A DNA stretch of 64,000 nucleotides, taken from contig OX597826.1 of NCBI GenBank assembly GCA_951406725.2, positions 3,720,001 to 3,784,000 on the forward strand, written 5' to 3'. This stretch comes from Octopus vulgaris. Taxonomy: Eukaryota. A model generated the notes under the pieces. It ran no database searches, was not told where the DNA came from, and was given only the letters and a program-made list of their open reading frames with translations. Both the position numbers and the translations under genes were made by a program. Positions 57,881 to 59,387 of this stretch are shown here, one piece after another (within the stretch, counting starts at the first letter, position 1; each line of letters opens with the position of its first letter).

Positions 57881-58942
57881 CATATCATCTTTCCTTGCTC
57901 TTTACTCACAACTATTCTGTTGTGTAACATTTAATCGAGAATTTTTCTTTTTAACTTCGTGTAATACAGACTCATAATGTAATTAATTAAAAGATACACG
58001 TGACGCCGGTCAACCACCTTGCAAAGATGTCGTCTTGAATTTCGTCTGAATGCTGTTATTTTTGGCATTGAAGTAATGGACAGGACGTGAAAAGAGACTA
58101 CTGGTGTAAATGGCATCAACCGACTGAATTCAATTATTATGCAGAACTAATATTGACTATTCTTGCTCTCGCTCGTCTTAGTAATAGACCTTCATACGCA
58201 CACATACAGACATACACGCACACGTATATATAGAGAGATATACGCAAAAATATATACATATGCATTCATACACACGCGTACATTTATATATCAATACATG
58301 TAAATATATATATATATATATATATATATATATATACATATGCACACACGTATCCTTTATCTTTTACTTCTATCATTGATTTGTCTGCGGCCATCGACCC
58401 CAGGATATTGTTAAAGGCTATTTTGTCAGTTTGTTTTGCAAAAACAGCTAAGTTCCTGAGACATCAACAGACGAACAAAGATTGACAAGCAATGATAGGG
58501 GACAAACAAGGATGGAAAGTCATATATACATAGATACACACACACGTTCACAAAAACCCTCATACACACATACATGCATACATACATATATACATACATA
58601 CATACGTACATACATATATATATGTATATATATATATATATATATATATATATATATATATATATATATATATATATATATATATATATATATATATATA
58701 TATATATATATATATATATATATATATAATTAGAAATATTGCATTTCTAAACCTCTCAGAGAGATTTATACAGTAGCAGCACAATAAAGTGATGGTTTCT
58801 TGCCAACTTAACATGGCAGTCACAGGAAAGGGAAGAATGCTATTGCTATGTAGCCCCAGGAACCATCGTTTCCAGTTCGCTATGTGACACAAGAGTGCTG
58901 TGTCCTTACGTTTTCTAACAGGGGAGGTAAGCACCTTCACCC

Positions 58943-59013
58943 AGCAAAGCCAGCGCCTAGAGACTAGTTTCAGAGTTATTGCTCTTCATCAGTCTGCAGT
59001 AGCTTGGCTTGCT
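58943..59013 (-). ncRNA. Intact-looking minimal type I hammerhead ribozyme
   Basis: Minus strand: ...AGCAAGCCAAGCuacugcAGA CUGAUGA AGAG caauaa CUCU GAAA CUAG UC UCUaggcGCUGGCUUUGCU; canonical core, GUC triplet, palindromic ACUAGU, extended stem I. Confidence 0.85.
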
Positions 59014-59387
59014 AGCTTGATTCTTTATCAAAGGCACAATGTCTAATTACAGAGGGGACATACAAATACATGCGGGAACATAAAATATATGAATAATGAA
59101 TGTGAAATGAATATATTTACAATGCAAATGAGCCGGCCATCTCGCTCCCGCTGCAAGATAAAACTGTGTATTCCTTTACCATTAACTTTTACACAACACC
59201 TAGCCTCGCTCCGAGGTGAAACCGTGACTTCCCTTTTCGCTTTGCCTTACAATTAAATTCCTTTTAAACAAATGTTCATACAGGATTTACTTATTTATTT
59301 TCCTTTTCCTAATTTGTATATATGTGTGTGTGTGTGTGTGTGCGTATGAATATATGTATGTATGTAAATATATATATACATATATAT

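What the first reader, a model, noticed from the sequence alone, without database searches (positions are those of the whole stretch)
58730..59020. Fully canonical HHR at the 5' end of a roughly 290-bp element ending in (TA)n
All core nucleotides are intact, with a GUC site and a long bulged stem I. On the minus strand about 230 nt of unique sequence follow the cleavage site before the (TA)n tract, which fits a solo pLTR or retrozyme monomer. This is the best candidate for a currently active ribozyme, and it could cut any minus-strand transcript crossing it.
Basis: partly seen in the sequence, partly recalled or inferred. Interest (0 to 1): 0.7.

Follow-up and report, generated by a model that had tools for sequence, protein, structure and literature searches.

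The report
Decayed hammerhead ribozyme in Penelope-type repeat
The self-cutting RNA motif is really there and sits in one worn copy of an abundant repeat family that is likely derived from Penelope-like jumping genes, a known kind; this lone copy is predicted to be inactive rather than an unusually good ribozyme.

Summary
The hammerhead core is real: on the minus strand CUGAUGA (58992-58986), a 4-bp stem II, GAAA, a palindromic stem III and GUC, with the cut between 58962 and 58961. It is the only such motif in the window (0.013 expected per shuffled window). Contigs of four public runs (1,068-1,530 laid per run) show that 58732-59017 is a 286-bp module of a multi-copy repeat. It has inverted and head-to-tail junctions at its 5' edge, as in Penelope-like elements (PLEs) and their retrozyme derivatives. 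In this locus the element runs about 280 bp further upstream, through a rarer segment whose depth fades towards the 5' end. The copy differs from the family majority at 19 or more of 286 positions. The majority has a 6-bp stem I; this copy has mismatches at pairs 4 and 5. It is predicted to fold with core and GUC paired to each other, about 10 kcal/mol below the catalytic fold. Stem III needs a partner, and the window has none. Verdict: a new member of a known kind, probably inert here. No PLE reading frame or RNA could be tied to it. The host looks octopus-like (not verified).

The parts
58986..58992 (-). Hammerhead core box CUGAUGA (C3-A9)
   Evidence: none of the 40 listed family differences falls here (137 rows not shown)
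58972..58985 (-). Stem II, 4 bp (first pair A-U) with 6-nt loop
   Evidence: pair probabilities 0.985-1.0; one listed family difference, in the loop at 58977
58962..58971 (-). GAAA box, palindromic stem III (58968-58963, 2 bp + 2-nt loop; dimer type) and GUC triplet; predicted cut between 58962 and 58961
   Evidence: self-duplex of the palindrome -4.8 kcal/mol
58993..59017 (-). 5' arm of stem I and its extension; mismatched at 58996 and 58997 in this copy
   Evidence: family letters
58941..58961 (-). 3' arm of stem I and its extension; differs from the family majority at 58958, 58956, 58955
58732..59017 (-). 286-bp high-copy module (pLTR-like or retrozyme-like unit), 44.8% GC, non-coding
   Evidence: depth step, loose ends and 8 of 15 listed joints at 59010-59017
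59018..59312 (-). Upstream segment of a rarer subfamily, about one tenth of the module's summed depth, fading towards 59300; the family majority has an AATAAA just before the module. 5' limit approximate
   Evidence: tables 2, 3, 8 (4 of 32 listed pieces bridge 59017)
58578..58728 (.). (TA)n microsatellite abutting the 3' end (perfect part 58625-58728); likely insertion target
59313..59390 (.). TA/TG-rich microsatellite at the 5' end of the insertion
   Evidence: read directly

Best explanation
This is an old, lone copy of an abundant hammerhead-bearing repeat, likely the 5'-truncated end of a Penelope-like element or of its non-coding derivative, and its ribozyme is predicted to be inactive. 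Shown: the motif, the multi-copy module, its 5' edge, the inverted and tandem junctions in other copies, the subfamily link to the upstream segment, and this copy's two stem I mismatches. Inferred from known PLE biology: an RNA with two modules folds the two hammerheads into a dimer through the palindromic stem III and cuts after GUC, releasing a unit-length RNA that may circularise. A PLE reverse transcriptase-endonuclease copies it into (TA)n tracts, starting at the module's 3' end (58732) and often stopping early or leaving an inverted piece at the 5' side. This insertion stopped at about 59300 and has since drifted about 7% from the family.
For: (4 of 12 listed runs laid, 80% likeness): 1475, 1068, 1530 and 1130 contigs lie on 58732-59312. 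Summed depth falls about tenfold at 59017 and fades further upstream (X1 20273, 1830, 694, 263; X3 54772, 4842, 2071, 927). Of 15 listed joints, 5 are strand inversions ending at 59010-59017 and 3 are head-to-tail returns from 59013-59017. Loose ends beyond 59017 (23, 20, 28, 9 contigs; agreement 0.65-0.73) read as an inverted copy of the part downstream of the ribozyme (14 identical letters shared with an X3 loose end, compared by eye). Craig 2021 (passages) gives inverted 5'-truncated copies, 5' truncation and microsatellite bias as PLE traits; PMC3846280 (passages) reports palindromes at inverted junctions and solo pLTRs. An Adineta vaga PLE hammerhead has the same stem III palindrome and GUC, and a shrimp PLE hammerhead the same A-U opening pair of stem II (Cervera 2014 supplement). 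Only 1.1% of non-microsatellite positions lie within 6 nt of a (TA)10+ tract. Inactivity: stem I helix -0.7 versus -8.0 kcal/mol for the majority letters, rival register -7.7 versus -7.9; catalytic fold 10 kcal/mol above the minimum.
Against: No RT or GIY-YIG frame was linked to the element: no genome is held, the element is non-coding, and 1 of 21 window frames gave a Pfam hit, unrelated to PLEs. The family majority fits the canonical metazoan type I shape (stem I 6 bp, stem II 4 bp), which Cervera 2020 assigns mostly to tandem retrozymes rather than to PLEs. The tool warns that joints at under 95% likeness can come from other repeats and that summed depth is no copy number; 12 joints and 843 loose ends were not shown. 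X1 record 5 carries the upstream segment with about 65 unaligned letters where the module should be, so the segment is not always tied to this module. ViennaRNA ignores tertiary contacts, Mg2+ and proteins, so inactivity is a prediction. Many other repeats in this window also abut (TA)n, which weakens the targeting argument.
Confidence: 0.62

Rival explanations
1. A dispersed monomer of a tandem non-LTR retrozyme family (about 290-350 nt units, cut by dimeric hammerheads and circularised), here fused to an unrelated upstream repeat. It overlaps with the best explanation, since such families are reported to derive from pLTRs.
For: Canonical 6/4/2-bp helix shape in the family majority (Cervera 2014); 286 bp and 44.8% GC against about 300 bp and under 45% in Cervera 2020; head-to-tail joints of 283-286 in X1, X2, X3; solo monomers are common (Li 2026).
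Against: The head-to-tail joints rest on 1-2 contigs per run, at depths like those of the long single pieces, with unknown letters between; inverted joints are more numerous (5 versus 3 listed). The 286-nt module does not fold better than shuffles (z = -0.99). No array in the window.
Confidence: 0.25
2. The upstream segment is the 3' end of a different retrotransposon whose transcript is ended by the hammerhead just behind its poly(A) signal; the module is a captured 3'-processing unit.
For: Majority AATAAA just upstream of the module edge (59029, 98% of depth in X1); depth fades 5'-wards; the segment also occurs without the module (X1 record 5); both halves have drifted alike (19/286 and 20/283).
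Against: The segment has about a tenth of the module's depth, so most modules do without it; the same facts fit a PLE body followed by its 3' pLTR; no coding parent was found.
Confidence: 0.08
3. An active, possibly co-opted ribozyme that cuts a host transcript crossing this site.
For: Core letters intact; long hairpin around the core (z = -2.98).
Against: An intact core is expected by chance at this divergence (P = 0.18 for 0 of 19 changes in 25 positions), while 3 of 19 changes hit the 12 stem I positions (P = 0.04, post hoc); rival fold probability about 1.0; no dimer partner in 64 kb; no gene identified across the site.
Confidence: 0.04
4. A chance motif in unique DNA.
For: No Rfam hammerhead match.
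Against: 0.013 hits per shuffled window; over a thousand related contigs per run, with a better stem I than this copy.
Confidence: 0.01

Closest known systems
Hammerheads in the pLTRs of metazoan Penelope-like elements (Cervera and De la Pena 2014, PMC4209133), especially the variants with a small palindromic helix III (Adineta vaga, Drosophila, kuruma shrimp)
   Same: Type I topology, palindromic stem III needing a dimer, mostly single dispersed motifs, copies on opposite strands nearby, wide sequence variation; same stem III palindrome and GUC as the A. vaga motif; A-U opening pair as in the shrimp motif.
   Different: Family stem I is 6 bp and stem II 4 bp (canonical sizes, not the short-I/long-II minimal form); no extra base before stem II if A-U is taken as its first pair; stem I is extended by a long hairpin; no ORF could be linked.
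Non-LTR retrozymes of animals (Cervera and De la Pena 2020, PMC7229834; Li, Clavereau and Pollet, bioRxiv 10.64898/2026.07.22.740005), including the mussel and axolotl families
   Same: About 300-bp non-coding unit, under 45% GC, canonical-size type I hammerhead with short helix III, some head-to-tail copies.
   Different: This copy is solo; tandem joints are few in the data seen; inverted junctions and a 5'-fading upstream segment are PLE-like; circular RNA not tested.
Microsatellite-biased PLE clades (Neptune; Naiad) (Craig et al. 2021, bioRxiv 10.1101/2021.04.23.441226)
   Same: Insertion at (TA)n, inverted 5'-truncated copy, 5' truncation; Naiads are reported in Octopus.
   Different: Naiads are reported to lack hammerheads, so a Naiad parent is unlikely; the clade cannot be set without the RT.

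Membership tests
Type I hammerhead ribozyme | Conserved core CUGANGA, GAAA, NUH in order with stems I and II | tested here: met
Type I hammerhead ribozyme | G10.1-C11.1 pair | tested here: not met
   A-U in this copy; no listed family difference there. A PLE motif of shrimp shows the same
Type I hammerhead ribozyme | Stem I of about 6 bp (canonical metazoan form) | tested here: not met
   This copy 4 of 6 pairs, 3 contiguous; family majority 6 of 6
Type I hammerhead ribozyme | Short palindromic stem III allowing a dimer | tested here: met
Type I hammerhead ribozyme | Self-cleavage after NUH | not testable with these tools
   folding predicts the rival register for this copy
Penelope-like element (pLTR) | RT plus GIY-YIG ORF next to the repeat | not testable with these tools
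   no genome; none in the window frames scanned or in 58732-59312
Penelope-like element (pLTR) | Hammerhead inside the terminal repeat | tested here: met
   motif lies at the 5' end of the 286-bp module; that the module is a pLTR is inferred
Penelope-like element (pLTR) | Inverted 5'-truncated copy at the 5' end | tested here: met
   in other copies: 5 of 15 listed joints and loose ends at 59017; not in this copy
Penelope-like element (pLTR) | Frequent 5' truncation, partial tandems | tested here: inconclusive
   depth fades upstream; 3 of 15 listed joints are head-to-tail; contig depth is a poor measure
Penelope-like element (pLTR) | Microsatellite insertion bias (Neptune, Naiad) | tested here: inconclusive
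   this copy abuts (TA)n (1.1% by chance); other copies have mixed AT-rich left flanks (9 contigs, agreement 0.51)
Non-LTR retrozyme | Tandem units each with a hammerhead | tested here: inconclusive
   not at this locus; a few head-to-tail joints elsewhere
Non-LTR retrozyme | Non-coding unit of about 150-400 bp, GC under 45% | tested here: met
   286 bp, 44.8% GC; the true unit may be longer
Non-LTR retrozyme | Expressed as circular RNA | not testable with these tools
   all four runs laid are contigs, none on record as RNA

The most novel reading that the evidence does not exclude
The family is a living intermediate between a Penelope end and a retrozyme. One 286-bp hammerhead module is carried in three forms: behind a fixed inverted arm that puts the ribozyme at the tip of a long hairpin (the commonest), behind a poly(A)-signal-bearing body segment, and in head-to-tail pairs. 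If the host is an octopus, it would be a cephalopod hammerhead family not found in my literature searches, with young copies making circular RNA and long double-stranded substrates in an animal known for heavy RNA editing (recalled).
Probability: 0.25. Interest if true: 0.5.

Novelty: new member of a known kind. Interest (0 to 1): 0.24.

Why it matters
Little for this copy: hammerheads in Penelope ends and retrozymes have been described since 2014 and 2020, also in molluscs. The family has some value. Two searches (hammerhead ribozyme + octopus; cephalopod + self-cleaving ribozyme + hammerhead) listed no paper on cephalopod hammerheads, and the 2026 Octopus vulgaris repeat annotation does not contain the word ribozyme in text or supplement although PLEs cover 6.83% of that genome. 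A family that shows pLTR-type and retrozyme-type junctions side by side could test, in an invertebrate, the proposal that retrozymes arise from pLTRs. The case also shows that an intact core does not mean an active ribozyme.

Tried and rejected
No whole genome is held, so copies were not counted directly. Rfam: no hammerhead hit; the microRNA-like hits are TA repeats. Run search: 12 runs, 1 with half or more of the words, no RNA holder listed; this blank is no evidence on expression. Pattern scans: 9 loci (10 rows) in metagenome contigs and 14 in viral contigs; none is homologous to the element beyond the core (best E 0.053). Pfam on 21 selected window frames: no RT or GIY-YIG. No tRNA gene in the window, so no support for a tRNA-headed SINE. 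A 20-nt inverted repeat between 58727-58746 and 59030-59049 (21 of 32 over a longer stretch) was rejected as this copy's inverted pLTR piece: 3 of the 4 family differences there remove a match. A 19-nt, 74% terminal inverted repeat (58718-58736 and 59305-59323) is mostly TA and was taken as chance. The ATG at 58814-58812 is not shared by the family majority. The idea that this copy's changes strengthen the rival fold was not borne out (-7.7 versus -7.9); they weaken the catalytic one. Earlier notes by place and by sequence: none. The supplement of Cervera 2020 and file 1 of Cervera 2014 could not be read, and bioRxiv supplements are closed; they may list cephalopod motifs.

Full report
Observation. 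On the minus strand the window reads CUGAUGA (58992-58986), stem II of 4 bp with a 6-nt loop (58985-58972), GAAA (58971-58968), CUAG and UC, with the predicted cut between 58962 and 58961. It is the only one of 21 CTGANGA sites that completes the descriptor. Allowing one core mismatch adds none, and 300 block-wise dinucleotide shuffles of the microsatellite-free window gave 0.013 hits per window. Rfam does not detect it. The pair next to the core in stem II is A-U, and stem III is a 6-nt palindrome that can only form 2 bp around a 2-nt loop in a monomer, so the motif is of the dimer type described by Cervera and De la Pena 2014 (parts 1-2 of 4 of the text and parts 1-2 of 3 of supplement file 2 read).

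Setting. The window is dense in microsatellites (160 rows shown) and in short dispersed repeats; I identified no host gene (1 of 21 selected frames gave a Pfam hit, below its cut-off). The repeat landscape looks octopus-like to me; this rests on recalled SINE sequence and was not verified. The element has no second copy in the window and encodes nothing recognisable. No genome is held.

Family. The run search listed 12 runs, one with 61% of the words and ten with 7-14%, from five coded organisms. I laid four (X1-X4) on 58732-59312 at 80% likeness. 1475, 1068, 1530 and 1130 contigs were laid, most of them under 95% alike. Summed depth is high over 58732-59011, drops about tenfold at 59017 and fades towards 59300 (X1: 20273, 1830, 694, 263). 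The tool states that this is no copy number; 60-100 separate contigs per run show the majority letter at most module positions, so the family is large and varied. Of 15 listed joints (12 more hidden), 8 use 59010-59017: five strand inversions, in which a piece of the module's 3' part points away from a copy that starts at the edge, and three head-to-tail returns (283 and 286 back to 58732, 228 back to 58786), each on 1-2 contigs per run with unknown letters between. Loose ends beyond 59017 (23, 20, 28 and 9 contigs) agree at 0.65-0.73 and read as an inverted, diverged copy of the stretch downstream of the ribozyme, so the commonest form likely extends stem I into a long hairpin. This window's own upstream segment is bridged to the module in 4 of 32 listed pieces (X2 records 11-13, X3 record 20), so it marks a subfamily; one piece (X1 record 5) has the segment without a matching module.

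State of this copy. Among the 40 listed differences (137 hidden), 19 majority differences fall in the 286-bp module and 20 in the next 283 bp in X1, so both halves are about 7% or more from the family and likely inserted together. None is in the core or stem II pairs, which is unremarkable (P = 0.18). Three are in the six pairs of stem I: the majority letters give 6 of 6 pairs, this copy 4 of 6 with C.A and G.G at pairs 4 and 5. Helix energy is -0.7 against -8.0 kcal/mol. A rival register, in which the start of the core pairs with the GUC site, is worth -7.7 and -7.9. So the two registers are about level with the majority letters, where dimer stem III (-4.8) could tip the balance, while in this copy the rival wins. 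Folding of four contexts from 91 to 581 nt gave probability 0.0 for catalytic stem I and 0.98-1.0 for the rival, with a 10 kcal/mol gap. These models omit tertiary contacts and ions.

Mechanism. Shown are the motif, module, junction types and decay. Inferred from the literature is the cycle: transcription through two modules, dimeric self-cleavage after GUC, possible circularisation, and copying by a PLE RT-endonuclease into (TA)n, with 5' truncation and inverted 5' pieces. Craig 2021 (passages) lists these structural traits and notes that Naiads lack hammerheads. PMC3846280 (passages) describes inverted pLTRs, palindromic junctions and solo pLTRs. Cervera 2020 (passages and sections 14 and 17) places canonical type I motifs in about 300-bp tandem retrozymes, also in mussel, and reports weak monomer and strong dimer cleavage for short helix III. 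Li 2026 (parts 1-3 of 5) derives retrozymes from pLTRs, finds solo monomers common, and saw cleavage in 1 of 9 dimers tested. The two main readings are therefore ends of one continuum. I favour the PLE end (0.62) over the plain retrozyme monomer (0.25) because inverted junctions outnumber tandem ones and the upstream segment fades like a truncated body. Against this, no PLE reading frame could be tied to it and the helix sizes are those of retrozymes.

Collections. Core-pattern scans found no homologue of the element. They did bring up an unrelated repeat family in three metagenome contigs with the same stem III and cleavage site.

Novelty. New member of a known kind. My searches found no paper on cephalopod hammerheads (the O. 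vulgaris annotation PMC13282606 seen as passages and a supplement search; PMC8967140 as passages), but the library lacks most subscription papers and several supplements were unreadable. Earlier notes of this scan describe the same kind in other genomes; they are unchecked and are not support. Interest 0.24.

Noticed in passing
L005:1-1185, L003:1-1445, L008:748-1320: Three metagenome contigs carry one non-coding repeat family (68-89% alike) with a dimer-type hammerhead (5-bp stem I, same stem III palindrome and GUC). L005 holds two copies 727 bp apart (99.3% over 458 bp); L003 repeats at 1021 bp. Looks like a large tandem retrozyme or PLE derivative; unrelated to the window's element outside the core. 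L005 seems to end in a sequencing adapter (recalled).
   Followed up: partly
L014:3001-3033, L015:3001-3033: Phage contigs with a well-formed type I hammerhead that has a long monomeric stem III, read by eye.
   Followed up: no
L004 and L007 matches: Further hammerhead-like cores with paired stem II; no PLE frame of 70 aa or more was evident nearby.
   Followed up: partly
window 54539-55090, 23319-23741, 25543-25657: A 185-bp SINE-like unit occurs as a tandem trimer and a tandem dimer plus fragments; resembles an octopus SINE from memory.
   Followed up: no
window 13093-13573: 107-bp unit in 4.5 tandem copies, 95% matches, each ending in a CATA-rich stretch.
   Followed up: no
window 28861-29217, 32341-32712, 33065-33367, 35710-35982, 36730-37092: Short frames that read like remnants of restriction-like-endonuclease LINEs (Dong/R4 type) beside (TAA)n tracts; label recalled, no Pfam hit.
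   Followed up: partly
window 40364-41092 (-), 44865-45494: 3' ends of L2/CR1-like and RTE-like LINE frames; labels recalled, no Pfam hit.
   Followed up: partly
window 986-1337, 7028-7982, 14991-15350, 39134-39541: Tc1/mariner-like transposase scraps (one weak DUF4817 hit at 986-1318); 7152-7424 and 7640-7908 form an 80% inverted pair.
   Followed up: partly
window 13635-13934, 19660-19967, 21222-21665, 27082-27871, 38477-38702, 46808-47215, 53160-53573, 55387-55792: A second SINE-like family of about 400 bp with a central microsatellite, at least eight copies.
   Followed up: no
window 59121-59128 (-): An ATTTGCAT octamer lies in the upstream segment; meaning unknown.
   Followed up: no
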